A DNA stretch of 64,000 bases from Candidatus Limnocylindrales bacterium (GTDB lineage: Bacteria; Chloroflexota; Limnocylindria; Limnocylindrales; CSP1-4). Position 1 is the first letter of the stretch. Each line of letters starts with the position of its first letter. The notes below the pieces were generated by a model, which saw only the letters and a list, made by a program, of their open reading frames with translations, ran no database searches and was not told where the DNA came from. Shown in pieces: positions 41,069 through 57,374 of this stretch. The stretch is taken from contig JBBSFD010000001.1 in NCBI GenBank assembly GCA_038239115.1, positions 51,399 through 115,398 on the forward strand, in the 5' to 3' direction. Both the position numbers and the translations under genes were made by a program.

Positions 41069-41237
41069 CGATTCCGCGTGCATGGTCACTGGCTAGTGAG
41101 GGACGCCCTTAGCCTACGAAACGCCCGCCTCGGCTCCCCGATTCGCGCATGGCTCGAGCTCAAGCCGCAGTCGGCCCCGCCAAACCCTGGTCTGGGGCCT
41201 GGGCCTTGTGCTCGCCGCGTCCATGCACGCGGAATCG
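41069..41237. repeat. perfect 17-bp inverted repeat (CGATTCCGCGTGCATGG / CCATGCACGCGGAATCG) bracketing 135 bp of non-coding DNA
   Basis: Arms at 41069-41085 and 41221-41237, verified against the codon positions of overlapping track ORFs; lies in the 385-bp gap between the LLM oxidoreductase and a small upstream gene. Confidence 0.5.
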
Positions 41238-41324
41238 ATTGAGCGAAGGCCCAGGCCGAGGGTCGCGCCACCGAACCCCGAGCCGCCCTCGTCGCGGAAC
41301 GAGGACCTCGCCACGGAACGAGAG

Positions 41325-41603
41325 TCAGGCGTTATCCAGCTCGCGCGAGATCGCCCGCAGGATGAACCGGGCCGCCTCGGCGCTCTTGCCGCCGAGCTTC
41401 TGGCCGTCGTCCTGTTCGAGGGCGCGGCCCAGGTCGCCCAGCATCAGGTCGAGGGTCGGGGTGCGGACCAGGGTGCCTGCTGCAAAGGCCGCCTCGAGGC
41501 CGGCTGCGGCGGTTCGGGCGTTGTCGACGGCATGGCCCTTGGCCTCCATCGCCTCGCGAAACGCCAAGCGTGCCGCGTCGGCCGCCGGCCCGCTGCTGGC
41601 CAC
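41325..41603 (-). CDS. hypothetical small alpha-helical protein (92 aa)
   Basis: GTG start; high GC3; co-directional and 20 bp downstream of the RimJ-like GNAT gene. Confidence 0.35.
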   Translation of the reverse strand: MASSGPAADAARLAFREAMEAKGHAVDNARTAAAGLEAAFAAGTLVRTPTLDLMLGDLGRALEQDDGQKLGGKSAEAARFILRAISRELDNA

Positions 41604-41622
41604 GGTCAGCTCATCCCCACGG

Positions 41623-42300
41623 TCAGCCGATCCGCTGGATCGTGGGAGCGTCGACCGGGCGGCCCGTCGCCGGGTCGGTGAGCGGCGACTCGTCCGCGCC
41701 GGGATCAGCCACGGCGCCCGACACGCCAGCGGGAATGGCCGCCTGCATCGCCCGCCAGTCGCTGTCGAGGATGCTCATCTCGACCTCGTCCCACCAGCGG
41801 TCGTCGCGCCGGATCGCCTCCCGGGACCGGCCCTCGATGATGAAGCCGGCCCGCAGGTAGGCCCGAATCGCCCGCTCGTTGAAGGCGAACACGCTCAAGC
41901 CGATCCGATGCAGCCGCAGCCGCTCGAACGCGTGCTCGAGCATCAGCCGGGTGGCTTCGGTGCCATAGCCCTTGCCCCAGGCTTCCTTCTCGCCGATCGT
42001 GATGTGGAACAGGGCCGAGCCGTTCTCGCCGTCGAGCTGGCTGAAGGCGCACGTCCCGAGCAGCCGATCCGAGGTCCGCTCGTGGATCGCCATGGCCAGC
42101 GAATCGGAGCCCAGGACCCGGGCATGGAAGAAGCGCTCGATCTCGGGCCGGGCCATCGGCCCTTCCTGGTAACGGGTCAGGCGGGACACCTCGGGGTCGG
42201 CGTACCAGCGCATGAACGCGGCCAGGTTGCCGGGCACGTGTCGCTTCAGGACGACCCGGTCGCCCACCAGACGGTCGGGGAACCAGCTGCGGTGGAGCAT
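41623..42300 (-). CDS. GNAT family N-acetyltransferase (RimJ/RimL-like)
   Basis: C-terminal 225 aa of track ORF 41623..44544; HITIGEKEAWGKGYGTEATRLMLEHAFERLRLHRIGLSVFAFNERAIRAYLRAGF acetyltransferase core. Confidence 0.75.
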   Translation of the reverse strand: MLHRSWFPDRLVGDRVVLKRHVPGNLAAFMRWYADPEVSRLTRYQEGPMARPEIERFFHARVLGSDSLAMAIHERTSDRLLGTCAFSQLDGENGSALFHITIGEKEAWGKGYGTEATRLMLEHAFERLRLHRIGLSVFAFNERAIRAYLRAGFIIEGRSREAIRRDDRWWDEVEMSILDSDWRAMQAAIPAGVSGAVADPGADESPLTDPATGRPVDAPTIQRIG

Positions 42301-42327
42301 CGAGGCGGACGGTATACCATCCCCGCC

Positions 42328-44181
42328 ATGCGCCGCTGGAGCGAGGTCGCCGAGCGGGTTTCGGCCACGACGCGGACCTCTGTCAAAACGCACCTGCTGG
42401 CCGACTACCTGCGCGCGATCGACGTCGAGCAGCTGCCCGTGGCCACGGTCTTCTTCGCCGGACGGCCCTTCGCCGAGGTGGACAGCCGGACGACCGGCCT
42501 GGGCTGGGCGACGATCTCGGGTGCCGTGGCCGGCCTCGACGACCTGCCGGCCGATGCCCTGGGCGACGCCTACGATCGATCGTCCGACCTGGGCCTGGCC
42601 GTGGCCGACGTGCTCGAGCAGGCGATCGAGTCGCGCCGCCAGCGGGGTCAGCCGGAGCGCGACACCGAGGGCCTCAGCCTGGCCGAGGTCGCCCGTGCGT
42701 TCGCCGCGATCGAGACCGCGAGCGGCTCGACCGCCAAGGCCGAGCGCTTCTCCGAGCTCCTGGCCCGGTGTGACCCGCTGACCGCCCGCTACGTGGTCAA
42801 GATCCTCACCGGGGAGCTCCGGATCGGGCTGGGCGAGGGCCTCCTCGAGGCCGCCCTGGCCGAGGCGTTCGGGCGGCCGATCGCCGCCGTCAAGCGGGCC
42901 GGGATGCTCACCGGCGACGTCGGCCAGACAGCCCTGCTCGCCCGCGACGACCGACTGGGCAGTGCCGCCATCGCCCTGTTCCATCCGCTCAAGTTCATGC
43001 TCGCTTCGCCGGCCGAGGACGCCAGCGAGATCATCGGCCGGCTGGGCCCGACGGCCTGGGTCGAGGACAAGTACGACGGGATCCGGGCTCAGCTCCACCG
43101 GGCCGGCCGCGACGTGCGCCTGTACAGCCGCGACCTGCACGACATCACCGGCCAGTTTCCCGAGGTCGTGGACGGGGCTCGCGACCTGACCTGGACGGGC
43201 ATCCTCGACGGCGAGATCCTGGCCTATCGGGAGGGCACGGTGATGCCCTTCGTGGCCCTCCAGAAGCGCCTCGGCCGGAAGGCGCCGTCCGCCGCGATCC
43301 GGGCCGAGGTACCCGTTGTCTACGTGGCCTTCGACCTGCTGGCCCTGGCCGACTCGGGCGTGCCCAACGGCACGGAGCGGGCAACTGGTTCGGAGCCGGC
43401 CGCCGAGGCCCTCCTCGATCGGCCCCTGGCGGAGCGCCGCCGCCGCCTCGAGGCGCTCGACCTGCCGGCCGCCGACGACGGCGGCTCGTTTGCCCTGTCG
43501 CACCTGGTCTCGGTCGACTCGGCCGACCAGCTGGAGGAGGCCTTTGACCAGGCCCGCCTGCGGCGCAACGAGGGGCTCATGGTCAAGGACCCGGCCAGCC
43601 CATACTCGCCCGGCCGGCGCGGCCTGGGCTGGCTCAAGATGAAGAAGGCCCTGGCGACCCTCGACTGCGTGGTCGTCGGCGTCGAGCTCGGCCACGGCAA
43701 GCGCCACGGGGTCCTCTCGGACTACACCTTCGCCGTGCGCGACGAAGCGAGCGACCGGCTGGTCACGATCGGCAAGGCCTACACCGGCCTGACCGACGCC
43801 GAGATCGCCGAGATGACCGCCTGGTTCGAGGCCCACACCCTGGCCCGCTATGGACGCTACCGGACGGTCCAGCCGACCGTGGTCGTCGAGATTGCCTTCG
43901 ACGTGATCGTTCGCTCCAACCGGCACAGCTCGGGTTTCTCGCTGCGCTTCCCCCGGATCGCCCGGCTGCGCCTCGACAAGGACGCCGCCGAGATCGACAC
44001 GACCGCCTCGGTCGAGGCCGTCTGGAGCGGCCTCCAGCACGAGCCAGAGCAGCTGGTAACGGCCGGCCACGTGCGCGGCGGGACGCCATCGGCCCGTTGG
44101 CGCAAGGTCCCTGGCGAGGTTCCTGGCGCGGCCGGGGATGGACCTTCGGATGGGCCGGCGGGGGACAACTCGCCGGGCTAG
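42328..44181 (+). CDS. ATP-dependent DNA ligase (LigB-type)
   Basis: Adenylation motif I WVEDKYDGIRAQLH (KYDG-type lysine), motifs III-V (EGLMVKD..., LKMKK); in-frame internal ATG at 42328 of ORF 41149..44181. Confidence 0.85.
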   Translation: MRRWSEVAERVSATTRTSVKTHLLADYLRAIDVEQLPVATVFFAGRPFAEVDSRTTGLGWATISGAVAGLDDLPADALGDAYDRSSDLGLAVADVLEQAIESRRQRGQPERDTEGLSLAEVARAFAAIETASGSTAKAERFSELLARCDPLTARYVVKILTGELRIGLGEGLLEAALAEAFGRPIAAVKRAGMLTGDVGQTALLARDDRLGSAAIALFHPLKFMLASPAEDASEIIGRLGPTAWVEDKYDGIRAQLHRAGRDVRLYSRDLHDITGQFPEVVDGARDLTWTGILDGEILAYREGTVMPFVALQKRLGRKAPSAAIRAEVPVVYVAFDLLALADSGVPNGTERATGSEPAAEALLDRPLAERRRRLEALDLPAADDGGSFALSHLVSVDSADQLEEAFDQARLRRNEGLMVKDPASPYSPGRRGLGWLKMKKALATLDCVVVGVELGHGKRHGVLSDYTFAVRDEASDRLVTIGKAYTGLTDAEIAEMTAWFEAHTLARYGRYRTVQPTVVVEIAFDVIVRSNRHSSGFSLRFPRIARLRLDKDAAEIDTTASVEAVWSGLQHEPEQLVTAGHVRGGTPSARWRKVPGEVPGAAGDGPSDGPAGDNSPG

Positions 44182-44766: not shown

Positions 44767-45609
44767 CTAGCGCTCGACAGGCAGGTCCAGTCGATCGCCC
44801 CATTCGGCCCAACCGCCGTCGTACACCGCGACATCGTCGTGGCCGGCCAGGGCCAGGATGAAGGCCAGCTTGGCCGCAGCGACTCCTGAGCCGTCGTAGC
44901 ACACGATCCGCCGACTGCGGGTGACGTTCGCTTTGAGCAGCACGTCACGCAGCCGGTCGGCCGGCTGGAACAGGCCGGTGCCGGGTTGGGTGAGGCCGGC
45001 GACCGGCAGGTTGACCGCACCGGGGATATGACCCAGCCGCTGGGTGTTGCCCTCGAAGCCATGGAACTCGGCCGTCGCCCGGGCGTCGACGAGCAGGACG
45101 GCCGCTGAGCCAAGCAGGTCCCGGACGTCGGTCGTGGTCAGGCGCAGCTCGGGCCGGGCGACTGCCTCGAACCGGCTGCTGGCGGTGGCCGGGCCGGCCG
45201 CCGTGATCTCGCCTGCGCCGTCGGTCCAGGCCCGGAAGCCGCCGTCGAGGATGGCCACCGACCCGACCCCCGACGCGCGCAGGCTCCACCAGGTCCGGCC
45301 CGCGTACAGGCTGGCCACATCGTCGTACAGGACAACCGTGCTGCCCGCTTCCACGCCCGCCCGGCCCAGGGCGGCCCCGACCCGTTCGGGGTCGGCCAGG
45401 GTCAGGATGCCCGTCTCGTCGTCCCGATCGGACAGCTCCACGACCCAGTCGAGATAGCTGGCGCCGGGGATATGGCCAGCTCCGTAGACCGCCCGGCCGG
45501 TGCCATCGGGCCGCCAGCGGACATCGATCAGCCGGAGGTCCGGCCGGCCCAGGTTGGCGGTCAGCCACTCGGCGGACGCGACGAGCTCGGGGCGCGGGTA
45601 GTCAGCCAT
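44767..45609 (-). CDS. thiosulfate/3-mercaptopyruvate sulfurtransferase (tandem rhodanese domains)
   Basis: Two rhodanese domains; active-site loop IVCYDGSGVAA. Confidence 0.85.
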   Translation of the reverse strand: MADYPRPELVASAEWLTANLGRPDLRLIDVRWRPDGTGRAVYGAGHIPGASYLDWVVELSDRDDETGILTLADPERVGAALGRAGVEAGSTVVLYDDVASLYAGRTWWSLRASGVGSVAILDGGFRAWTDGAGEITAAGPATASSRFEAVARPELRLTTTDVRDLLGSAAVLLVDARATAEFHGFEGNTQRLGHIPGAVNLPVAGLTQPGTGLFQPADRLRDVLLKANVTRSRRIVCYDGSGVAAAKLAFILALAGHDDVAVYDGGWAEWGDRLDLPVER

Positions 45610-45629
45610 GCACCCATATCATACGGACC

Positions 45630-46871
45630 GTGGTGAGCCCTCTTTCCGGCGAGGCCGACAAGGTCGCCGCCCTGCGCCAGGCCCTGCCCGCCACCTCGGC
45701 CGGGATCTACCTCAACACGGGCACATGCGGGCCGCTGCCGGCCGAGACGGCCGCGGCGATGGCCGAGCTGGCCGACTGGGAGCTGCGCCTCGGCCGGGCC
45801 TCGCCCGACACCTACTACGACGTCCTGCAACGGATGGAGGAGGCCCGCGCCTCGGTCGCGGCGATCGTCGGCGCGGACATCCGGGACATGGCCCTGACCC
45901 ATGCCGCGACCGAGGCGATGAATGTGGCCACCTGGGGGATCGATTGGCGGTCGGGTGACCGGGCGGTCAGCGCTCGCCGGTTCGAGCACGCCGGCGGGCT
46001 GGCCGCCCTGTACAGCGTGCGCGATCGATTCGGGATCGAGCTCGACCTGGTCGACATCGGTGACGGTGATCCGGGCCGCGCCCTCGAGGCGTTCGACCGG
46101 GCGATCCGGCCCGGCACGCGCCTGGTCAGCCTGTCCCACGTGTCGCACGCCACCGGGGCCGTCCTGCCGATCGCCGAGATCGCCCGGCTGGCCCATGAAC
46201 GGGGCGCGCTCTTGGCGGTCGACGGGGCCCAGGCCGTCGGCGCGATCCCGGTCGACGTCGCCGGCCTGGGGGTCGACCTGTATGCGATTGCCGGCCAGAA
46301 ATGGCTCATGGGACCCGAGGGCACGGCCGCCCTGTACGTCGCGCCGGCGGCGCTCGAGCGGGTCCGGCCGGCCTATGCCTCGTTCTGGTCGCTCGAGGAG
46401 CACGACCTCGAGGGCTTGGCCCGGCCCTGGCCGAACGCTCGTCGCTTCGAGGGCACGAGCGGGGTGAACCACGGCCTGGTGGTTGGGTTTGCCCGAAGCT
46501 GTGGCTGGCTGTCGATGTACGTCGGGCTGGAGTGGGCCAACCAGCGCACGGCCCGGCTGGCCCGGCAGACGGCCGAGCGGCTGGCCGCGATCCCGGGCGT
46601 GACCCTGATCACGCCGACCTCGACCATGGCCGGGCTGGTCGTATTCAGCCTGGCCGGCTGGCCGGCCGAGACGATCGTGGACGAGCTGGGCGCCCGGATC
46701 TTCGTGATCAGCCGAGCCATCAAGGACTTCGACGCGGTCCGTTTCTCGGTCGCCTGGTTCAACACCGAGGCCGAGCTGGAGCGGACCCTCGAGCTGGTGG
46801 CCGAGCTGGCCCGACACACGCCCGAATCGATGCCCGCCCGGCGGACCCTCAACGTCCTCGAGGGAGGATGA
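45630..46871 (+). CDS. class V aminotransferase / cysteine desulfurase-like PLP enzyme
   Basis: GTG start; SLSHVSHATGAVLPI and AIAGQKWLMGPEG (PLP-lysine region); divergent from the rhodanese gene with a 20-bp gap. Confidence 0.8.
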   Translation: MVSPLSGEADKVAALRQALPATSAGIYLNTGTCGPLPAETAAAMAELADWELRLGRASPDTYYDVLQRMEEARASVAAIVGADIRDMALTHAATEAMNVATWGIDWRSGDRAVSARRFEHAGGLAALYSVRDRFGIELDLVDIGDGDPGRALEAFDRAIRPGTRLVSLSHVSHATGAVLPIAEIARLAHERGALLAVDGAQAVGAIPVDVAGLGVDLYAIAGQKWLMGPEGTAALYVAPAALERVRPAYASFWSLEEHDLEGLARPWPNARRFEGTSGVNHGLVVGFARSCGWLSMYVGLEWANQRTARLARQTAERLAAIPGVTLITPTSTMAGLVVFSLAGWPAETIVDELGARIFVISRAIKDFDAVRFSVAWFNTEAELERTLELVAELARHTPESMPARRTLNVLEGG

Positions 46872-47263
46872 GCAGCCAGCCGCCGCTGCGCCGACGGTCC
46901 GAAGTCCAGGTTCGCTGGCGCCAGTTCCGCAATCCACCCCGGCCGATCCTGCGTGCCGTCCTGAGCTCGCTCAGCGTGGCGAGCCTGCTCGGCCTTGTGT
47001 ATCTGGTCTACGACGTCCTGCTCAGCCGGGGCGCCCACCTGCCCGGCGGCGACCTGCGGACGCTGGCTGTGCTGGTCTTCGTCCTGGTCGTGCTCGTCTC
47101 GGGCAGCCTGCTGACCTACCTCGTCGTACCCCAGCCGACCGGTTCGGGCAACGTCCGTCGGCGCAGCCGCTGGAGCGCGGCCCTGGGCCTGTTTGCGGCG
47201 GTCCCGATCGCCTACCTCGTCCTGGTCGTGGAAGGCCAGATCCTGCGGCCCCTGCTGGGTTGA
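46868..47263 (+). CDS. small membrane protein (131 aa, 3 TM helices)
   Basis: ATGA overlap with the aminotransferase stop; hydrophobic helices. Confidence 0.4.
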   Translation: MSSQPPLRRRSEVQVRWRQFRNPPRPILRAVLSSLSVASLLGLVYLVYDVLLSRGAHLPGGDLRTLAVLVFVLVVLVSGSLLTYLVVPQPTGSGNVRRRSRWSAALGLFAAVPIAYLVLVVEGQILRPLLG

Positions 47264-47820
47264 CCGAGCGCCCCGGCTTCAAGGCTGTGGTGCGCTCGGG
47301 CAACACCAACGCAGTGGTCGTGCTCAACTGGCATAGTCCTTTCGTACTCTTCCGCGCTACCCTGCACTGGATATCATCCGGGGCGGATCGCCTCGCAGGG
47401 ATCCACGCGCTGAGGTTCTTTGTGTCCGAAGAACAGCATCTCGCCCTGCCCCATCTGTATGGGGCACCCGCCTACTCGCGCCCACCGCGCGTGGTCGAGC
47501 AGGTGGCTCGGCCGTTCGACCCGGACGAGCTGCCAATCGAGGCGGATCGTACCGACCAGGACGCGCTCGCTCTGGCCGAGCTGGCCGGCAATAGCTGGGC
47601 GCCCGCGGTCGAGCCGACGCCCAAGGCCCACAAGCGGGTCCGCCTCGGGCGGGCCGCGCGCAATGCGGCCCCCTCCGACCAGGCGAAGGCCGTGGCCGTT
47701 TCCGTCGGCGTGGCCGCCGCGCCGGCCGGCCGGGAGGATCCGAACGAGCAGCCCAGCCTCGAAGGACGGCCGTTCCGGCTGCGTAGCCTGGGCCGGATCT
47801 TCGGCAGCGATCAGAAATAG
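47260..47820 (+). CDS. hypothetical protein
   Basis: TTG start overlapping the preceding stop; high GC3 supports coding; no family. Confidence 0.35.
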   Translation: MTERPGFKAVVRSGNTNAVVVLNWHSPFVLFRATLHWISSGADRLAGIHALRFFVSEEQHLALPHLYGAPAYSRPPRVVEQVARPFDPDELPIEADRTDQDALALAELAGNSWAPAVEPTPKAHKRVRLGRAARNAAPSDQAKAVAVSVGVAAAPAGREDPNEQPSLEGRPFRLRSLGRIFGSDQK

Positions 47821-47899: not shown

Positions 47900-48358
47900 A
47901 TGACGGGCATGGCCCGCCCACGGCACAGCGCCCCTGCCAGCGACGAGACTCCGTTCGATCCTGAACACGCCCTCCGGATCGGCCAGGCGGCCGAGCTGCT
48001 GGGCGTGGGCATCGACACTCTGCGCCGCTGGGAAGCCACCAGGAAGCTGCGGGTCATCCGCACGCCTGGCGGCCAGCGGATCGTGCCGATCCTCGAGGTG
48101 AGCCGTCTGCTGGGAGAACGCCGCCGGGGCACGCCCGACCGGCCGATCGTGGCCCAGTCCGCCCGCAACCGCTTTGCCGGGATCGTGACCCGGGTCGAGC
48201 GAGATGGGGTCGCGGCCGTGGTCGAGGTCATGGCCGGGCCGCACCGGCTGGTCAGCCTGATGACCGCGGAGGCGGTCGACGAGCTGTGCCTGGCTGTTGG
48301 CCAGGAGGTCGTGTGCGTGGTCAAGTCGACCAACGTGATCGTCGAGATCCCACGCTGA
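47900..48358 (+). CDS. excisionase/MerR-type HTH fused to a TOBE (molybdate/oxyanion-binding, Mop-like) domain
   Basis: HTH_17-like AAELLGVGIDTLRRWEATRKL; C-terminal TOBE RNRFAGIVTRVERDGVAAVVEVMAGPHRLVSLMTAEAVDELCLAVGQEVVCVVKSTNVIV. Confidence 0.65.
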   Translation: MTGMARPRHSAPASDETPFDPEHALRIGQAAELLGVGIDTLRRWEATRKLRVIRTPGGQRIVPILEVSRLLGERRRGTPDRPIVAQSARNRFAGIVTRVERDGVAAVVEVMAGPHRLVSLMTAEAVDELCLAVGQEVVCVVKSTNVIVEIPR

Positions 48359-48401
48359 GCCGTCGCCCGGAGCTCCGCCCGGGCGGTGCTAGGATGCCGC
48401 C

Positions 48402-48477
48402 GGGGGAGTAGCTCAACGGTTAGAGCGGCGGGCTTATATCCCGCTGGTTCCAGGTTCGAATCCTGGCTCCCCTACCA
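48402..48477 (+). tRNA. tRNA with anticodon TAT (tRNA-Ile, AUA-decoding), CCA encoded
   Basis: Cloverleaf folded by hand: acceptor GGGGGAG/CTCCCCT (G1-U72 wobble), D-arm GCTC-AACGGTTA-GAGC, anticodon arm GCGGG-CTTATAT-CCCGC with T35A36T37 at 48435-48437, variable loop TGGTT, T-arm CCAGG-TTCGAAT-CCTGG, discriminator A, CCA. Confidence 0.75.
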
Positions 48478-48486
48478 GCGCGCCGG

Positions 48487-49278
48487 TCAGGCCAGGCTCA
48501 GCCGGATCCGGTCGAGGACCTGCTTGCGCCGAGCCGGGCTGAACGTCCGGTGGGGAGGCAGCGAAGCCAGGTAGGCGGGCACCTGGCCAGGTCGGACGAT
48601 GGCGATCGCCGGATTGCGGGTGGCGGGATCGACCTCGGCCACGACCAGGCCGTAGACCTTGACCACGAAGCCGTGCTCGTCGGCGGCCAGCCAGCGCCGG
48701 ACCGCCTCGGCATCCCGGGCCGTCCGGTCGAGGGGATCCTCGATCGCCGTCCAGACGTCCCCCCGGACTCGCCCCTCCCAGTGGCCGTCGACCTGCCGGC
48801 TCGAACGAGGGTTGGGCAGCGCCCCCACGATCACGATCCCCTGCGGGCCAACGATCAGGCGACCAATCGTGCGTCCGCCGGGCAGGCTCAGGCCGCGGAC
48901 CGCGGCGTAGTCCTCGCCCAGGTTGCCGACGCCGGCCAGCGGATTGCGGCCCGCGCCGAGCGGATTGGGCAGGTCGGCGAAGTCGAGGATTCGATGGGTG
49001 CCCACGATCAGGCACAACCCGGGCAGGGCGAGCGCGGTCAGCCAGGCCAGGGTATGAACGGTCGTGTCCCCGGCGAACGCCCGGCCGTGGGCAGCAAAGA
49101 CATCGACATAGGGCGTGGTCAGGGTGAGCCAGGCAATCGCCAGGCCGGTCGCGACGTACAGGGCGCCGATCAGGCGGGCGATGGCCAGCGCGCGGGCGGT
49201 CGGGCGTCGACGACCCTGGGCGCTGATGACCTCCATGCCCGGATCCTCGGCCATCCGGCCCGCCACGGCCATCCCCAC
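48487..49278 (-). CDS. membrane-anchored NERD (nuclease-related domain) protein
   Basis: Two N-terminal TM helices, then a NERD-like core (GRLIVGPQGIVIVGALPNP..., compare the family consensus DHLVIGPxGVFVIETK); the start may be an internal Met (49236). Confidence 0.5.
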   Translation of the reverse strand: MGMAVAGRMAEDPGMEVISAQGRRRPTARALAIARLIGALYVATGLAIAWLTLTTPYVDVFAAHGRAFAGDTTVHTLAWLTALALPGLCLIVGTHRILDFADLPNPLGAGRNPLAGVGNLGEDYAAVRGLSLPGGRTIGRLIVGPQGIVIVGALPNPRSSRQVDGHWEGRVRGDVWTAIEDPLDRTARDAEAVRRWLAADEHGFVVKVYGLVVAEVDPATRNPAIAIVRPGQVPAYLASLPPHRTFSPARRKQVLDRIRLSLA

Positions 49279-49458: not shown

Positions 49459-52400
49459 ATGGCGGAGGGGTTCACGAGCGCGCGATTCGTGGGGCGTGAG
49501 CGAGAGCTCGCCCGGATCGCCACCGCCCTCGAGCAAACGGCCGACGGCCGATCCACGACGCTGCTCATCGCCGGCTCCGGTGGTGTCGGCGTCTCGCGCC
49601 TGCTCACCGAGACGCGCCACCGACTGTCCGCCCTGCCCGAGCCCTTCGAGGTCATCCGCTGCCGGGCCCGGTCCGGTCGCTCCGGCGATCCGTATGCCCC
49701 GCTCGGGGTCGCCTTCGGCCGGCTCCTCGACCAGATCCCCGACGACGAGCTGCCGGCCCTCGTCGAGACCGGCGCCGACGAGCTCATCCGCCTCCTGCCC
49801 GACCTGCAACCCCGGCTGGCCGACCTGGGCCTGCTGCCCAGCCGCCAGACCACGATCGATCCGGAGCGCCGCCAGACCAGGATGCTCGAGGCGATCCTGG
49901 GCCTGCTGACCCGGCTGGGTGAGCGCCGGCCGGTGGTCCTGACCCTCGAGGATCTGCATGACGCCGACGCCGGCACGCGAGCCCTGGCGGCTTTCCTGGC
50001 CCGCGTCTCCCGGCCCGGCCGGCTGTGCGTCATGGCGACCTACCAGCCCGACGAGCTCACCCGCCAGCACCCGCTCCACGACACCCTGGCCGCGATGGCC
50101 GACGCGGCCCGGCCCCCAGAGCGGCTCGTCCTCGAGCCGTTCCGCCGCGACGAGCTCGCCCGGCTGATCGAGTCGATCGAAGGCGAGCGGCCGTCGGCCT
50201 CGGTCCTCCTGCTCGTGACCGAGCGCTCCCGGGGCAACGCCCTGATCGCCGAAGAGCTGCTGGCCGCCCGGCGCGAGCTGGCCGGTGCGTCCCTGACGAG
50301 CTCCCTGGACGAGCTGGTCATTGCCCGCCTGGCCGGGCGTTCGCCCGAATGCCGGCGGGTGCTGCGCCTGCTCGCGCCGGCCGGTGAGCCTCTCACCCTC
50401 GAGCAGCTGGCCGCGGCCTCGGTGGCTTTCGAGCGCGAGGCGGACCGCCCGGCGCCCCGCTCGAGCTCGTCGCCCAGGCGCGGCGGCGGGGTCCTCGAGG
50501 CGGACCTCGGCCACGGCCTGGCCGAGGCCCTGGAGCACGGCTTCGGCCGGCTCGAGGGGCCCGACGGCGAGGACTTCGATGACGAAGGCGCCGTGGCCGA
50601 CCTGCCCGCCGATGCCGTGGTCGGGATCCGCCACCCGCTCATCGCCCGCTCGATCGAGGCCGACCTGCTGCCCGGCCAGCGCCGCCGCCATCACGCCGCC
50701 CTGGCCGAGGGCCTGGCCGATCGGCCCGGAGCCCAGGCCCGCCACTGGCTGGCGGCCCACGAGCTGGGCCGGGCCAGGATCGCCGCCATCGAGGCGGCCT
50801 CGCTGGCCGAGAACGTCGACTCGCTGGCCGACGCGCTGGCTCACCTGGAGCTCGCCCTGGAGCTCGACGACCGGACCGAGCCCGCCGCCGGCGAAGCCGA
50901 CCAGGCCTCGCCGGCCAGCCTGCTCCAGCGAGCCGGTGAGGCGGCCTTCGCCGACGGCCGGCCGGCCCGCGCCGCGGCCTACGCCGAATCGGCCATCGCC
51001 CGCCTCGATGAGCGGGGCGATCGGCTCCGGATGGGCCTCCTGTTCGAGCGACTCGGACGCTACCGCCGGGCGGCCGGCGACCAGGACGGTTCGATCCTGG
51101 CCCATCGCCGGGCGGTCGAGCTGGTGCCGGTCCGGCCGTCGCGCGAGCGTGCCCTGGTCGTCGCCGCGCTGGCCCAGGTGCGGATGCTCGAAGGCACGTT
51201 CACCGAGGCCGAGCGGCTGGCGGTCGAGGCGATCGAGGTCGCCCAGGCGGTTGGCCCGGCCGCCCGCGGCGAGGAAGGCCACGCCACCTGCACCTTGGGC
51301 ATTAGCCGGGTGTGGGGCGAGGATCCCGAGGGCGGCCTGGCCCTCCTGCTCGAGGCCCGCCAGATCGCGACCGAGCTGGCCCGCTTCGACGATGTCTTCC
51401 GGGCCACCGCCAACCTGACCACGGCCCTGGACCTGCTCGGCCGCAAGCGCGAGGCCGTGGACGTGGCCCGGGCCGGCATCGAAGCGGCCCGGCGGGCCGG
51501 CCAGGAAGCAGTGTTCGGCAACTACCTGCGCGGCAACGGCGCCGATTCGCTATTCCTGCTGGGCGACTGGGCCGCCTCCCGGGCCCTGGTCGAGACCGCT
51601 CTCGAGTGGAGCCCGGTCGGAGTGAACCTGGTCAACGCCCTGTCCAACCTGGCCATCGTCGAGATCGAGACCCGGGCGGGCGAAGTGGCCGGGCGCCTGC
51701 TGGGTCGCCTGTTGCTCGAGCTCGACACCGTCCCCGACGCCCAGGATTCCGTGCCGACCTACCAGGCGGCCGCCTCGTTCGCCCTGTGGCGGGGCGATCT
51801 CGAGGACGCCCGCCGGGCGGTGGCCCGGGGCTGGAGCCGGGTCCGCGCGACCGAGGACTGGGTCCTGGTCGCCCGGATGGCCGCAGTCGTGATCGAGGTC
51901 GACGCCGTCTCGATCGCCGACGCCCGGGGCGGTCGGGACCTGTCCACCGTGGCCGAGGCCCGGAGTCGCAGCTCGATTGTCCTGGCCGAGGCCGAAACGG
52001 CCGTCCATGAGGCGGGCGTGGCCGCTCGCTTCGGCTCGCGTCGCGAGGCCGATGCCCATCTCGCCCTGGCCCGGGCCTATCGCGCCCGAATCGAGGGCCG
52101 CGACGAGCCGGTGGCCTGGGATTCCCTGGCCCGAACCTGGGAGCAGCTCGAGCGTCCGTACCAGGTGGCCCGGGCCCGCTGGCGCCAGGCCGAGGCGGCC
52201 CTGGGTGCGGGCGACGGGCGGGCCGGCCGGATCGCGGCCAAGGCCCCCCTGGTCGAGGCCGTTCGGCTGGCCCGTGAGCTCGGAGCCGGTCCGCTCCTGC
52301 GGGAGCTGCAGGAGCTTGCCGGCCGTGCCCTGATCCCGCTGCCCGAGCCGATCCTGGCCACGACCGACCTGGGTGAGCCGCCGGCTGGCTCCGAGTCCGA

Positions 52401-52761
52401 GCTGGTGGCGGTGCCGATGGGCGGCGGCCACGATCCAGCCGATGGGGGCTCGACTGGCCGGGCCGGCTGGGCGGTGGCCGGCCTGACTCCGGCAGCGGCG
52501 GAACGGAGCGGCCTGGCCTCGGTCTTCGTGGGGCCGGCCGAACCGCCACCGGGCGATACGTTTGGCCTCAGCCGGCGCGAGCGCGAGGTGCTCATCCACC
52601 TGTCCCAGGGGCGGACCAACCGTGAGATCGGCGAGCGCCTGTTCATCAGCCAGAAGACCGTCGGCGTCCACGTCGGGAACATCCTGGCCAAGCTCGGCGT
52701 GTCCGGCCGGGTGGAGGCCGCCGCCGTGGCCATTCGGCTGGGCCTGACCGAAGCCGCCTGA
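49459..52761 (+). CDS. LAL-family (large ATP-binding LuxR-type, MalT-like) transcriptional regulator
   Basis: N-terminal STAND/AAA NTPase domain, long TPR-like helical middle, C-terminal LuxR HTH (LSRREREVLIHLSQGRTNREIGERLFISQKTVGVHVGNILAKLGV); the Walker A reads GSGGVGVSRL, with Val in place of the conserved Lys. Confidence 0.85.
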   Translation: MAEGFTSARFVGRERELARIATALEQTADGRSTTLLIAGSGGVGVSRLLTETRHRLSALPEPFEVIRCRARSGRSGDPYAPLGVAFGRLLDQIPDDELPALVETGADELIRLLPDLQPRLADLGLLPSRQTTIDPERRQTRMLEAILGLLTRLGERRPVVLTLEDLHDADAGTRALAAFLARVSRPGRLCVMATYQPDELTRQHPLHDTLAAMADAARPPERLVLEPFRRDELARLIESIEGERPSASVLLLVTERSRGNALIAEELLAARRELAGASLTSSLDELVIARLAGRSPECRRVLRLLAPAGEPLTLEQLAAASVAFEREADRPAPRSSSSPRRGGGVLEADLGHGLAEALEHGFGRLEGPDGEDFDDEGAVADLPADAVVGIRHPLIARSIEADLLPGQRRRHHAALAEGLADRPGAQARHWLAAHELGRARIAAIEAASLAENVDSLADALAHLELALELDDRTEPAAGEADQASPASLLQRAGEAAFADGRPARAAAYAESAIARLDERGDRLRMGLLFERLGRYRRAAGDQDGSILAHRRAVELVPVRPSRERALVVAALAQVRMLEGTFTEAERLAVEAIEVAQAVGPAARGEEGHATCTLGISRVWGEDPEGGLALLLEARQIATELARFDDVFRATANLTTALDLLGRKREAVDVARAGIEAARRAGQEAVFGNYLRGNGADSLFLLGDWAASRALVETALEWSPVGVNLVNALSNLAIVEIETRAGEVAGRLLGRLLLELDTVPDAQDSVPTYQAAASFALWRGDLEDARRAVARGWSRVRATEDWVLVARMAAVVIEVDAVSIADARGGRDLSTVAEARSRSSIVLAEAETAVHEAGVAARFGSRREADAHLALARAYRARIEGRDEPVAWDSLARTWEQLERPYQVARARWRQAEAALGAGDGRAGRIAAKAPLVEAVRLARELGAGPLLRELQELAGRALIPLPEPILATTDLGEPPAGSESELVAVPMGGGHDPADGGSTGRAGWAVAGLTPAAAERSGLASVFVGPAEPPPGDTFGLSRREREVLIHLSQGRTNREIGERLFISQKTVGVHVGNILAKLGVSGRVEAAAVAIRLGLTEAA

Positions 52762-56624: not shown

Positions 56625-57374
56625 ATGACCGACGCGATCTGCTATCGCGATGCCTACGCGGACCGGATCGAGGCGGTCGTCGTCGCGTCGACCGCGGTTG
56701 CTGACGGCCAGGGCGCCCAGGTCGTGCTCGACCGGACTGTCTTCTACCCGGGCGGCGGCGGCCAACCGGCCGATCGGGGCCTGCTCCTGCGAGCGGCCGA
56801 TGGCCGGACCTGGACGGTCACCTCGGCGCGCAAGGATGGCCCTGACATCGTCCACGATCTGGAGCAGGACGGCGGCGAACCGCCCGCGGTCGGCGACCGG
56901 CTCGAAGTGGGGCTCGAATGGGCCCGCCGCCATCTCCTGATGCGGACCCATACCGCCCTCCATGCCCTGTGCGGGGTGGTCTGGCGCGACTACGGGGCGC
57001 AGGTCACCGGCGGCAACATGGAGCCCGGCAGCGGCCGGATGGATTTCGAGTTCGAGCGGATGAACGCCGACCTGGTCGGCTCGATCGAGGCGACCGTGAA
57101 CGCCGAGCTGGCCCAGGGCCGGCCCATCAAGGTCAACGTCCTGCCCCGCGACGAAGCCTTCGCGATCCCGGACCTGATCCGGACCAAGATCAATCTGCTG
57201 CCACCGGGGATCGCCGAGATCCGCACGATCGAGATCGTCGGTCTCGACCTCCAGGCCGACGGCGGCACCCATGTGGCCAACACGAGCGAGGTCGGCTCGA
57301 TCCGGGTGACCGGCTACGAGTCCAAGGGCCGGATCAACAAGCGCATCCGGATCGAGCTGGTCGCGCCGGCCTGA
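56625..57374 (+). CDS. alaX: AlaX-family trans-editing protein (alanyl-tRNA synthetase editing/second additional domain homolog)
   Basis: Zinc motif HTALHALCGVV...and GGTHV of the AlaRS editing fold. Confidence 0.75.
   Translation: MTDAICYRDAYADRIEAVVVASTAVADGQGAQVVLDRTVFYPGGGGQPADRGLLLRAADGRTWTVTSARKDGPDIVHDLEQDGGEPPAVGDRLEVGLEWARRHLLMRTHTALHALCGVVWRDYGAQVTGGNMEPGSGRMDFEFERMNADLVGSIEATVNAELAQGRPIKVNVLPRDEAFAIPDLIRTKINLLPPGIAEIRTIEIVGLDLQADGGTHVANTSEVGSIRVTGYESKGRINKRIRIELVAPA

What the first reader, a model, noticed from the sequence alone, without database searches (positions are those of the whole stretch)
48402..48477. A tRNA gene with a genomically encoded TAT anticodon (tRNA-Ile for AUA), uncommon in bacteria
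The cloverleaf folds cleanly with the anticodon loop CTTATAT, which places T-A-T at positions 34-36. Most bacteria decode AUA with a CAT-anticodon tRNA-Ile2 that TilS converts to lysidine. Genomically encoded UAU tRNA-Ile is known from only a minority of bacterial lineages, and it needs a special U34 modification to avoid misreading AUG. The acceptor stem also closes with a G1-U72 wobble pair. The gene sits next to a NERD-domain protein and a LAL regulator.
Basis: partly seen in the sequence, partly recalled or inferred. Interest (0 to 1): 0.55.

Follow-up and report, generated by a model that had tools for sequence, protein, structure and literature searches.

The report
Conserved AUA-reading isoleucine tRNA in Limnocylindria
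This is a real, intact transfer RNA gene with the rare UAU anticodon, conserved almost letter for letter and in the same gene neighbourhood in at least 114 related high-GC Chloroflexota species, where the AUA codon it reads is almost never used, so it extends a known rarity to a new lineage.

Summary
ARAGORN and Rfam (73 bits against a threshold of 29) call one tRNA at 48402-48477 (+). It has anticodon TAT, a G1-U72 pair, A73 and an encoded CCA.

The window is not from an actinomycete. It is from a 71% GC Chloroflexota of the class Ca. Limnocylindria. A truncated genome scan found the same tRNA in 114 species-level genomes. There were 30 sequence variants, G1-U72 was invariant and four stem pairs showed compensatory changes. 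The tRNA always sits in the same gene order and mostly behind a conserved -10-like promoter element.

AUA is the second-rarest sense codon, at 0.1-0.2 per 1000 codons. The residues that orthologues place opposite AUA codons look like those for AUC and AUU (Ile, Val, Leu), not like those for AUG.

The best reading is a functional, vertically inherited tRNA-Ile(UAU) that decodes AUA as isoleucine. I could not determine whether it replaces TilS and tRNA-Ile2(CAU) or coexists with them. Three protein searches reached TilS of other Chloroflexota but none attributable to Limnocylindria, which does not prove absence.

Verdict: a new member of a known kind, of moderate interest.

The parts
48402..48477 (+). 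tRNA-Ile(UAU) gene, 76 nt, with encoded CCA, G1-U72 and A73
   Evidence: ARAGORN; Rfam RF00005 at 73.1 bits; identical in L007, L015, L048, L082 and L119, and near-identical in 114 genomes; all stem pairs kept, with 4 compensatory pairs
48435..48437 (+). anticodon T34-A35-T36 within the loop CTTATAT (48433-48439; A37, T38)
   Evidence: direct reading; ARAGORN
48387..48395 (+). -10-like promoter element TGC-TAGGAT, separated from G1 by 6 nt (GCCGCC); function inferred
   Evidence: 82 of 114 related loci have TAGCAT, TAGGAT or TACGAT within 100 nt upstream; 42 have it exactly 6 nt before G1 and 66 at 6-9 nt; background is 0.029 per 100 nt. The generic sigma-70 scan found nothing
47900..48358 (+). 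context: MerR-HTH plus TOBE/Mop-domain regulator directly upstream, present only in the 5 closest relatives
   Evidence: Pfam and NCBIfam; tblastn synteny
48487..49278 (-). context: convergent 263-aa ORF whose stop lies 9 nt after the tRNA 3' end; two N-terminal hydrophobic segments and a weak NERD-like C-terminal part; adjacent to the tRNA in 104 of 114 loci
45630..47820 (+). context: conserved same-strand block upstream, made of a class-V aminotransferase (SufS-like, 45630-46871), a small membrane protein (46868-47263) and a small protein with the ALPKLYGAPAYARP motif (47260-47820)
   Evidence: Pfam and NCBIfam; present in 94-97 of 114 loci at fixed distances from the tRNA; sequences
44767..45609 (-). 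context: two-domain rhodanese (3-mercaptopyruvate sulfurtransferase-like), divergent from the aminotransferase
49459..52761 (+). context: LAL-type regulator (AAA_16, TPR, GerE/LuxR HTH)
   Evidence: syntenic in 60 loci

Best explanation
The locus is a functional elongator tRNA-Ile with a genomically encoded UAU anticodon, the type called tRNA-Ile3 in tRNAscan-SE terminology. It is an ancestral, vertically inherited single-copy gene of the class Ca. Limnocylindria (Chloroflexota). It lies at a fixed chromosomal position and is transcribed from its own -10-like promoter, which is placed so that transcription probably starts at or next to the mature 5' end. It is charged by IleRS, mainly through A35, U36, A37 and A73, and it reads the very rare AUA codon as isoleucine. 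AUA makes up about 0.1-0.2 per 1000 codons, which I estimate at roughly 100-200 codons per genome. I lean toward it being the main or only AUA decoder of the lineage, as in Bifidobacterium, but that step is inferred and was not shown. How AUG misreading is avoided is unknown; the options are a U34 modification, tuning by U38 and the 32-38 pair, competition from tRNA-Met, or the ribosome.
For: Shown: (1) A high-scoring canonical tRNA. (2) 114 of the 120 scan hits are the same tRNA in high-GC (63-77%) Limnocylindria-type contigs. They fall into 30 variants with G1-U72, A73 and CCA invariant. Compensatory changes occur at pairs 6-67, 7-66, 27-43 and 51-63, and 100% of pair cells are standard pairs, against 41-58% when the partners are slid. 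(3) The gene order ligase, DUF6812, rhodanese, aminotransferase, two small ORFs, tRNA, p263, LAL is conserved while the flanking proteins are only 30-65% identical, so the tRNA is far more constrained than its surroundings. (4) AUA is the second-rarest sense codon: 14 of 123,022 codons in homology-supported regions and 36 of 176,846 codons under a local frame test. Residues aligned opposite AUA are I 0.36-0.39, V 0.16-0.20, L 0.14 and M 0.05-0.08. That matches AUC and AUU (I 0.42-0.44, M 0.02-0.03) and not AUG (M 0.43-0.46). (5) A conserved upstream TAGCAT/TAGGAT element. (6) The tRNA is not phage-borne: four IMG/VR hits are unrelated tRNA-Ile(TAT) genes in low-GC tRNA arrays. The window itself is ordinary core chromosome with purE/K, icd, glnA, fumC, paa, mreBC and rml genes. 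Established knowledge: tRNA-Ile(UAU) decodes AUA in M. mobile, Bifidobacterium and Neorickettsia.
Against: No expression, charging or modification data exist. The codon-identity test rests on only 9-20 AUA codons. My scan pattern forced GGGCT[CT]ATATCCC, so the conservation of the anticodon, U38 and the three G-C pairs is partly ascertainment, and the scan stopped at 120 rows. The E. coli IleRS identity pairs C4-G69 and C29-G41, and also A38, are absent; this tRNA has G4-C69, G29-C41 and U38. With so few AUA codons, the selective value of a dedicated tRNA is not obvious. The tilS and tRNA-Ile2(CAU) status of the lineage is unknown.
Confidence: 0.82

Rival explanations
1. Sole-decoder version: Limnocylindria lost tilS and tRNA-Ile2(CAU), perhaps after GC pressure drove AUA almost to extinction, and tRNA-Ile(UAU) is the only AUA reader. 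That would make it a further independent bacterial clade of the M. mobile, Bifidobacterium and Neorickettsia type.
For: The tRNA shows near-absolute conservation and fixed synteny across at least 114 species even though AUA is only 0.1-0.2 per 1000 codons, which is easier to explain if nothing else reads AUA. Bifidobacterium, another high-GC lineage of the same NCBI kingdom (Bacillati), does exactly this. Three TilS searches reached Dehalococcoidia-, SAR202- and Anaerolineae-type Chloroflexota TilS down to about 50% identity, but found no protein named Limnocylindr* and none on a contig whose length equals any of my 114 tRNA-bearing contigs, which include a complete 3.62-Mb chromosome. No PP-loop SGGxDS motif occurs in a plausible protein-coding context in the window or in about 0.9 Mb of related loci; the two six-frame matches lie in stop-interrupted or low-complexity translations.
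Against: The loci examined cover only about 8 kb per genome. TilS is nearly universal in bacteria.
Confidence: 0.45
2. Redundant version: the lineage keeps the canonical TilS and tRNA-Ile2(CAU) system, and tRNA-Ile(UAU) is a second AUA reader, as reported for Lactobacillus casei and plantarum, Cyanothece PCC 7424 and Ferrimonas balearica.
For: TilS is almost universal. Other Chloroflexota classes clearly have it. Coexistence of the two systems is documented.
Against: A redundant tRNA for a codon used about once per 5,000-10,000 codons would be expected to decay or be lost in some of 114 species. Instead it is intact in all of them, with only compensatory stem changes.
Confidence: 0.37
3. bldA-like regulatory tRNA: the tRNA's abundance gates the expression of the few AUA-containing genes. 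This could hold alongside either version above.
For: AUA is almost as rare as UUA, which parallels UUA and bldA in Streptomyces (my own knowledge). The tRNA has its own promoter.
Against: AUA codons in the sampled genes are scattered, not conserved in position and not concentrated in regulators: the LAL genes carry 2 AUA in 37,229 codons. The conserved Ile-4 of the neighbouring p263 gene uses AUA in only 2 of 34 species. Only one genomic region per genome was sampled.
Confidence: 0.12
4. Not a normal Ile elongator. It could be an initiator-like or otherwise specialised tRNA (weak 1-72 pair, three G-C pairs in the anticodon stem, A73), a tRNA charged with another amino acid, or a tRNA used outside translation.
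For: G1-U72 is invariant even where neighbouring acceptor pairs co-vary. The G29-G31/C39-C41 pairs and A73 resemble initiator features. The usual E. coli Ile identity pairs are missing.
Against: C11-G24 is the elongator type and there is no 1-72 mismatch. The three G-C pairs were imposed by my search pattern and are common in 70% GC genomes. AUA codons occur internally and align with Ile, Val and Leu columns. The T arm and D arm are canonical.
Confidence: 0.04
5. Horizontally acquired, phage-derived or integration-site tRNA.
For: tRNA-Ile(TAT) genes are found in phage tRNA arrays. The nearest phage matches are CAT-anticodon 'tRNA-Met' genes at 76-78% identity.
Against: Both flanks are syntenic across the class. 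There is no integrase or repeat signature. The viral tRNAs have unrelated backbones and 44-53% GC.
Confidence: 0.02

Closest known systems
tRNA-Ile(UAU) of Mycoplasma mobile (Taniguchi et al. 2013, PMC3575796)
   Same: It is a genomically encoded TAT anticodon that reads AUA as Ile in a bacterium. It is a single-copy elongator tRNA with A37 after U36.
   Different: M. mobile is AT-rich, with thousands of AUA codons, and demonstrably lacks tilS. Its U34 is unmodified, and specificity comes from IleRS Arg865 and from the ribosome. Here AUA is nearly absent at 70% GC, the tilS, IleRS and modification states are unknown, and the tRNA carries G1-U72 and U38.
tRNA-Ile3(UAU) of Bifidobacterium and Neorickettsia (tRNAscan-SE 2.0 survey, PMC8450103; PMC3575796)
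   Same: In both cases the UAU tRNA is present across a whole lineage rather than in one strain. Bifidobacterium is also a high-GC member of the Bacillati.
   Different: Those lineages are documented to lack tilS and to have a eukaryote-type IleRS. Neither point was testable here. The phylum also differs (Chloroflexota).
Bacteria with both tilS and tRNA-Ile(TAT): Lactobacillus casei and plantarum, Cyanothece PCC 7424, Ferrimonas balearica (PMC3575796 discussion)
   Same: They offer a possible model of redundant AUA decoding.
   Different: Those cases are sporadic species. Here the gene is fixed and syntenic in at least 114 species.
bldA tRNA-Leu(UAA) of Streptomyces; unassigned AUA in Micrococcus luteus (both from my own knowledge, not checked here)
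   Same: The setting is a very high-GC genome in which an A-ending codon is almost extinct. In the bldA case a single dedicated tRNA is retained.
   Different: No developmental or regulatory role is shown here. Unlike M. luteus, the AUA reader is retained.

Membership tests
tRNA (Rfam RF00005) | Cloverleaf matching the covariance model at or above the gathering score | tested here: met
   73.1 bits against a threshold of 29, model positions 1-71; ARAGORN call
tRNA (Rfam RF00005) | Stems maintained by compensatory substitutions in homologues | tested here: met
   21 pairs with 100% of cells paired; 4 pairs changed on both sides; slid controls give 41-58% paired
tRNA-Ile(UAU) / tRNA-Ile3 | Genomic anticodon TAT at positions 34-36, with U33 and A37 | tested here: met
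   48435-48437 = TAT within the loop CTTATAT
tRNA-Ile(UAU) / tRNA-Ile3 | AUA codons translated as isoleucine | tested here: met
   Indirect evidence only. Residues aligned opposite 9-20 AUA codons are I 0.36-0.39, V 0.16-0.20, L 0.14 and M 0.05-0.08, which matches AUC and AUU and not AUG. The sample is small.
tRNA-Ile(UAU) / tRNA-Ile3 | Isotype-specific model (tRNAscan-SE Ile) scores highest; not flagged as a pseudogene | not testable with these tools
   tRNAscan-SE isotype models are not available here. The nearest labelled matches in phage records are CAT-anticodon 'tRNA-Met' genes at 76-78% identity, which is not decisive.
tRNA-Ile(UAU) / tRNA-Ile3 | E. coli-type IleRS identity set (A73, U12-A23, C4-G69, C29-G41, A38) | tested here: inconclusive
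   A73 and U12-A23 are present. G4-C69, G29-C41 and U38 differ from the E. coli set. That set comes from E. coli (my own knowledge) and may not transfer to Chloroflexota.
tRNA-Ile(UAU) / tRNA-Ile3 | Charged with Ile by IleRS | not testable with these tools
   This needs biochemistry.
TilS-independent AUA decoding (M. mobile / Bifidobacterium type) | No tilS gene in the genome | tested here: inconclusive
   No TilS or convincing PP-loop motif in the window or in about 0.9 Mb of related loci. TilS searches returned only TilS of other Chloroflexota classes, with no contig-length match to the 114 tRNA-bearing contigs. The lists are truncated, so absence is not shown.
TilS-independent AUA decoding (M. 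mobile / Bifidobacterium type) | No tRNA-Ile2(CAU) gene in the genome | not tested
   Whole genomes cannot be fetched.
TilS-independent AUA decoding (M. mobile / Bifidobacterium type) | IleRS adapted to U34 (Arg or Lys at the E. coli Trp905 position, or a eukaryote-type IleRS) | not tested
   No IleRS gene lies in the window or in the fetched loci.
Bacterial initiator tRNA | 1-72 mismatch, A11-U24, CAU anticodon and three G-C pairs in the anticodon stem | tested here: not met
   G1-U72 is a wobble pair rather than a mismatch. The 11-24 pair is C11-G24 and the anticodon is UAU. Only the three G-C pairs and A73 match.
bldA-like rare-codon regulatory tRNA | The cognate codon is among the rarest and is concentrated in regulatory or conditionally expressed genes | tested here: inconclusive
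   The rarity criterion is met: AUA is the second-rarest sense codon. No concentration was seen in the sampled genes, but only one region per genome was sampled.

The most novel reading that the evidence does not exclude
Ca. Limnocylindria as a whole class has abandoned the lysidine system (tilS and tRNA-Ile2(CAU)) and decodes a nearly extinct AUA codon with a single tRNA-Ile(UAU). This tRNA has an invariant G1-U72 and U38 and may be transcribed without a 5' leader. That would be a new, independent and much larger bacterial clade with reorganised AUA decoding. It would also be a natural example of a codon being driven almost to extinction by GC pressure and then held or recaptured by a different tRNA.
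Probability: 0.4. Interest if true: 0.6.

Novelty: new member of a known kind. Interest (0 to 1): 0.4.

Why it matters
Bacterial tRNA-Ile(UAU) has been documented in only a handful of lineages: Mycoplasma, Bifidobacterium, Neorickettsia and a few species that also keep tilS. It bears on how AUA and AUG are told apart without lysidine. Here the same solution appears as a fixed, syntenic gene across an abundant, uncultured soil and freshwater class of Chloroflexota with about 70% GC, in which AUA is nearly extinct. If the class also lacks tilS, it would be the largest known clade with lysidine-independent AUA decoding and a natural test case for codon-capture ideas. If it keeps tilS, the strict conservation of a seemingly redundant tRNA needs explaining. 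Either outcome can be tested quickly on existing complete MAG chromosomes. There is also a practical point: annotation pipelines will label this tRNA correctly by anticodon, so the gene itself is not hidden.

Tried and rejected
(1) I first assumed an actinomycete because of the 71% GC and the LAL regulator. I rejected this: window 44-53 kb is 75-81% identical and syntenic to Limnocylindrales and Chloroflexota MAG contigs.

(2) My single genome-contig scan used a pattern with Y at position 34 and a forced GGG/CCC stem and U38. It therefore cannot say how far the family extends beyond the class, nor whether those forced positions vary.

(3) Naive ORF calls gave 93 ATA codons and apparently recurrent AUA positions. 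Most lie in a shadow frame upstream of the aminotransferase start, antisense to the rhodanese gene, so I discarded them.

(4) I tested the idea that the neighbouring p263 gene depends on the tRNA through a conserved AUA at Ile-4. Only 2 of 34 species use AUA there, so I rejected it.

(5) The idea that the adjacent rhodanese and SufS-like pair thiolates U34 of this tRNA has no supporting evidence beyond conserved gene order. I kept it only as a note.

(6) Phage origin: the IMG/VR hits and the GenBank phage hits are unrelated tRNAs.

(7) A comparison with E. coli tRNAs was uninformative.

(8) The TilS hunt ran as follows. A profile of E. coli, Geobacillus and Aquifex TilS returned only close relatives of those queries. 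A metagenome scan gave one high-GC locus, L200, which turned out to be a Chloroflexota TilS. From there, a second search, a search of representatives, cluster look-ups, contig look-ups and a third search reached Dehalococcoidia, SAR202 and Anaerolineae types but nothing attributable to Limnocylindria. A tetranucleotide test could not assign lineage.

(9) An exact-protein look-up of the MerR-TOBE gene failed. MreB placed the organism only in three JGI metagenomes, on contigs of at most 10.5 kb.

(10) Literature searches found no paper on tRNA-Ile(UAU) in Chloroflexota or Limnocylindria.

Full report
**Observation**

ARAGORN reports a single tRNA in the 64-kb window, at 48402-48477 on the + strand, called tRNA-Ile with anticodon tat. 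Rfam's tRNA model matches 48402-48474 at 73.1 bits (gathering threshold 29, E = 4e-14) over the whole model.

Read directly, the gene is GGGGGAG-TA-GCTC-AACGGTTA-GAGC-G-GCGGG-CTTATAT-CCCGC-TGGTT-CCAGG-TTCGAAT-CCTGG-CTCCCCT-A-CCA. This gives:
- a G1-U72 wobble pair;
- A73 and an encoded CCA;
- T34-A35-T36 at 48435-48437;
- A37 and T38;
- standard G18-G19 and T-loop nucleotides.

The LAL regulator is confirmed by AAA_16, TPR and GerE domains. The 'NERD' neighbour is only a sub-threshold match (E = 0.009).

**What organism this is**

The window is about 71% GC throughout. It encodes ordinary chromosomal functions: purK/purE, isocitrate dehydrogenase, glutamine synthetase, fumarase, a paa cluster, mreB/mreC, rml genes and an AlaX-like editing domain.

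I had expected an actinomycete. Window 44-53 kb aligns at 75-81% nucleotide identity, in the same gene order, with five of them: L007, L015, L048, L082 and L119. Ca. Limnocylindria, formerly Ellin6529, is an uncultured class with about 69% GC and genomes of about 2.4 Mb (PMC10608941). An identical MreB places the organism in three JGI metagenomes.

**Conservation**

All 114 lie in 63-77% GC DNA. They collapse to 30 distinct sequences.
- G1-U72, A73, CCA, the D stem and the T loop are invariant.
- Variation is confined to the D loop, positions 26 and 44, the variable loop, position 59 and a few stem pairs.
- Stem variation is compensatory: A6-U67 to G-C, G7-C66 to A-U, G27-C43 to A-U, and A51-U63 to U-A.

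On 16 distinct sequences, all 336 pair cells form standard pairs, against 41-58% when partners are slid. Four pairs change on both sides, and only 1 of 500 shuffles reaches that count.

One caveat applies. My pattern fixed GGGCT[CT]ATATCCC, so the anticodon, U38 and the three lower anticodon-stem pairs could not vary in this sample.

**Synteny**

tblastn of the window's proteins against the loci shows one gene order across the class:

ATP-dependent DNA ligase, DUF6812, rhodanese (-), class-V aminotransferase, small membrane protein, small ALPKLYGAPAYARP-motif protein, tRNA, p263 (-), then the LAL regulator.

Counts are p263 in 104 loci, the two small ORFs in 95-97, the aminotransferase in 94 and the LAL regulator in 60. 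The flanking proteins are only about 30-65% identical, while the tRNA is 95-100% identical. The MerR-TOBE gene directly upstream in the window exists only in the five closest relatives.

Several contigs filed under other phyla share this synteny and are probably mis-binned or mis-named. They are labelled Verrucomicrobiia, Methylomirabilota, Eisenbacteria, Patescibacteria and Sulfomarinibacteraceae. The tRNA is solitary in nearly all loci. This pattern indicates vertical inheritance of a functional gene, not a mobile or decaying copy.

**Promoter**

Upstream of the tRNA, 82 of 114 loci carry TAGCAT, TAGGAT or TACGAT, usually as GGGTG-TAGCAT. The background rate is 0.029 per 100 nt. In 42 loci, including the window (TGC-TAGGAT at 48387-48395), exactly 6 nt separate the hexamer from G1. 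In 66 loci the spacing is 6-9 nt.

I infer a dedicated promoter whose start site falls at or next to the mature 5' end. This is inference only. The generic sigma-70 scan found nothing here.

**Codon usage and codon meaning**

The window's genes contain 2-3 ATA codons among about 18,600, and one of those lies in a shadow ORF. Across the related loci a naive count gave 93 ATA codons. Most of these lie in a spurious frame upstream of the aminotransferase start.

After cleaning:
- In homology-supported regions, AUA is 14 of 123,022 codons (0.11 per 1000).
- Under a local frame test, AUA is 36 of 176,846 codons (0.20 per 1000), the second-rarest sense codon after UUA (10 codons).

Residues that orthologues from other species place opposite each codon:

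| Codon | Ile | Val | Leu | Met |
|---|---|---|---|---|
| AUA (n = 9-20) | 0.36-0.39 | 0.16-0.20 | 0.14 | 0.05-0.08 |
| AUC / AUU | 0.42-0.44 | 0.19-0.22 | – | 0.02-0.03 |
| AUG | – | – | – | 0.43-0.46 |

Several AUA codons sit in strongly conserved Ile columns, for example 33 Ile to 1 Val, or 45 Ile to 8 Leu. AUA is therefore read as Ile, although the sample is small.

I found no sign that AUA is concentrated in particular genes. The LAL genes carry 2 AUA in 37,229 codons. The conserved Ile-4 of the neighbouring p263 gene uses AUA in only 2 of 34 species.

**How it most likely works**

The shown steps are these: an intact, selected, independently promoted tRNA with a UAU anticodon, in genomes where AUA means Ile and is extremely rare.

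The inferred steps are these:
- charging by IleRS through A35, U36, A37 (a t6A context) and A73;
- decoding of AUA by U34-A pairing;
- some mechanism against AUG misreading.

In M. mobile the wobble U is unmodified, and specificity comes from an IleRS Trp-to-Arg change and from the ribosome (PMC3575796). A special U34 modification is therefore possible but not required. The invariant G1-U72 and U38 are unexplained. They are candidate identity or tuning elements.

**The open question: does it replace the lysidine system?**

Neither the window nor about 0.9 Mb of related loci contains a TilS gene, and the only two six-frame SGGxDS matches lie in translations that do not look protein-coding. That is a small part of each genome.

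I tried to reach a Limnocylindria TilS in steps:
1. A profile of the three crystallised TilS proteins returned only relatives of the queries.
2. A metagenome scan yielded one high-GC locus, L200, whose TilS proved to be Chloroflexota-type.
3. From there, a search of 50%-identity representatives, two cluster look-ups, two contig look-ups and a final search reached TilS of Dehalococcoidia, SAR202, Anaerolineae and unclassified 'Chloroflexi', often next to a DivIC gene.

No hit was named Limnocylindr*. No hit had a 'longest contig' equal to any of the 114 tRNA-bearing contigs, which include a complete 3.62-Mb chromosome and 14 contigs above 1 Mb.

These lists show only the best 120-150 hits, and most proteins are unnamed, so this does not prove absence. 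I put the sole-decoder version at about 0.45 and the redundant version at about 0.37. The strict conservation of the tRNA despite near-absent AUA tips me slightly toward the former.

**Comparison with what is known**

Bacterial tRNA-Ile(UAU) is a known but rare kind:
- nine tilS-less species in three clades, plus a few species with both systems (PMC3575796);
- 17 genomes with Ile3(UAU) in place of Ile2(CAU) in the tRNAscan-SE 2.0 survey (PMC8450103);
- 'rare cases' in a 2026 IleRS preprint.

I found no paper that mentions it for Chloroflexota or Limnocylindria.

It is not an initiator tRNA: the 11-24 pair is C11-G24, there is no 1-72 mismatch and the anticodon is UAU. It is not phage-derived. 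It is a new, class-wide member of a known kind.

**Verdict**

Interest is moderate (0.4). It would rise to about 0.6 if complete Limnocylindria genomes turn out to lack tilS and tRNA-Ile2(CAU).

Noticed in passing
window 48387-48401 and the 100 nt upstream of the tRNA in L003-L120: A conserved -10-like element (GGGTG-TAGCAT or TGC-TAGGAT) lies upstream of the tRNA in 82 of 114 loci. In 42 loci it is exactly 6 nt before G1. This suggests that the primary transcript starts at or next to the mature 5' end, so the tRNA may be leaderless and may need little or no RNase P processing.
   Followed up: partly
window 48402 and 48473 (G1 and U72); all 114 homologues: The G1-U72 wobble pair is invariant even in the two divergent variants (L038, L090), where pairs 6-67 and 7-66 and the T stem have co-varied. 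U38 is also present in every copy, but my search pattern forced it. No function is known for either feature.
   Followed up: partly
window 44767-47820: A two-domain rhodanese (3-mercaptopyruvate sulfurtransferase-like) and a divergent SufS-like class-V aminotransferase, followed by two small unknown ORFs, lie directly upstream of the tRNA in about 95 species. This is a sulfur-transfer pair next to a tRNA whose U34 might need restricting. There is no evidence for a link beyond the conserved gene order.
   Followed up: no
window 47900-48358: A MerR-HTH plus TOBE/Mop (molybdate-binding-like) regulator is inserted between the small ORF and the tRNA. It is present only in the window and its five closest relatives (L007, L015, L048, L082, L119).
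   Followed up: partly
L040, L076, L087, L086, L068, L052: Contigs filed in GenBank as Verrucomicrobiia, Methylomirabilota, Eisenbacteria, Patescibacteria or Sulfomarinibacteraceae MAGs carry the same tRNA and the Limnocylindria gene order at 70-74% GC. They are probably mis-binned or mis-named.
   Followed up: partly
window 45000-45630 and the equivalent regions of the loci: In these high-GC genomes, long shadow ORFs antisense to the rhodanese gene fuse in frame with the aminotransferase ORF. They create false, apparently 'conserved' ATA codons. Naive codon counts overestimate AUA about 2- to 4-fold.
   Followed up: yes
window 41149-44181: The ATP-dependent DNA ligase has an N-terminal extension of about 396 aa with no Pfam match before the DNA_ligase_A_N domain. 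It contains one of the window's two genuine AUA codons (codon 273) and its only TTA codon (codon 62).
   Followed up: no
window 56625-57374: There is a free-standing AlaX-like protein (the tRNA-synt_2c C-terminal part plus a tRNA_SAD editing domain) upstream of mreB and mreC.
   Followed up: no
window 48487-49278 (-): The convergent neighbour p263 ends 9 nt after the tRNA's CCA. Its orthologues start at a conserved M-(Q/E)-V-I motif about 14 codons inside the longest ORF. They have two hydrophobic segments and a C-terminal region with only a weak NERD match.
   Followed up: partly
L208-L210: In Dehalococcoidia-type Chloroflexota contigs, tilS lies directly downstream of a DivIC/FtsB-like gene. 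This could serve as a synteny anchor when searching Limnocylindria genomes for tilS.
   Followed up: no
L121-L124 (IMG/VR): Four viral contigs carry unrelated tRNA-Ile(TAT) genes with the same GGGCTTATATCCC anticodon arm. One lies in a 28-tRNA array (L123) and one is a tandem pair (L121).
   Followed up: partly
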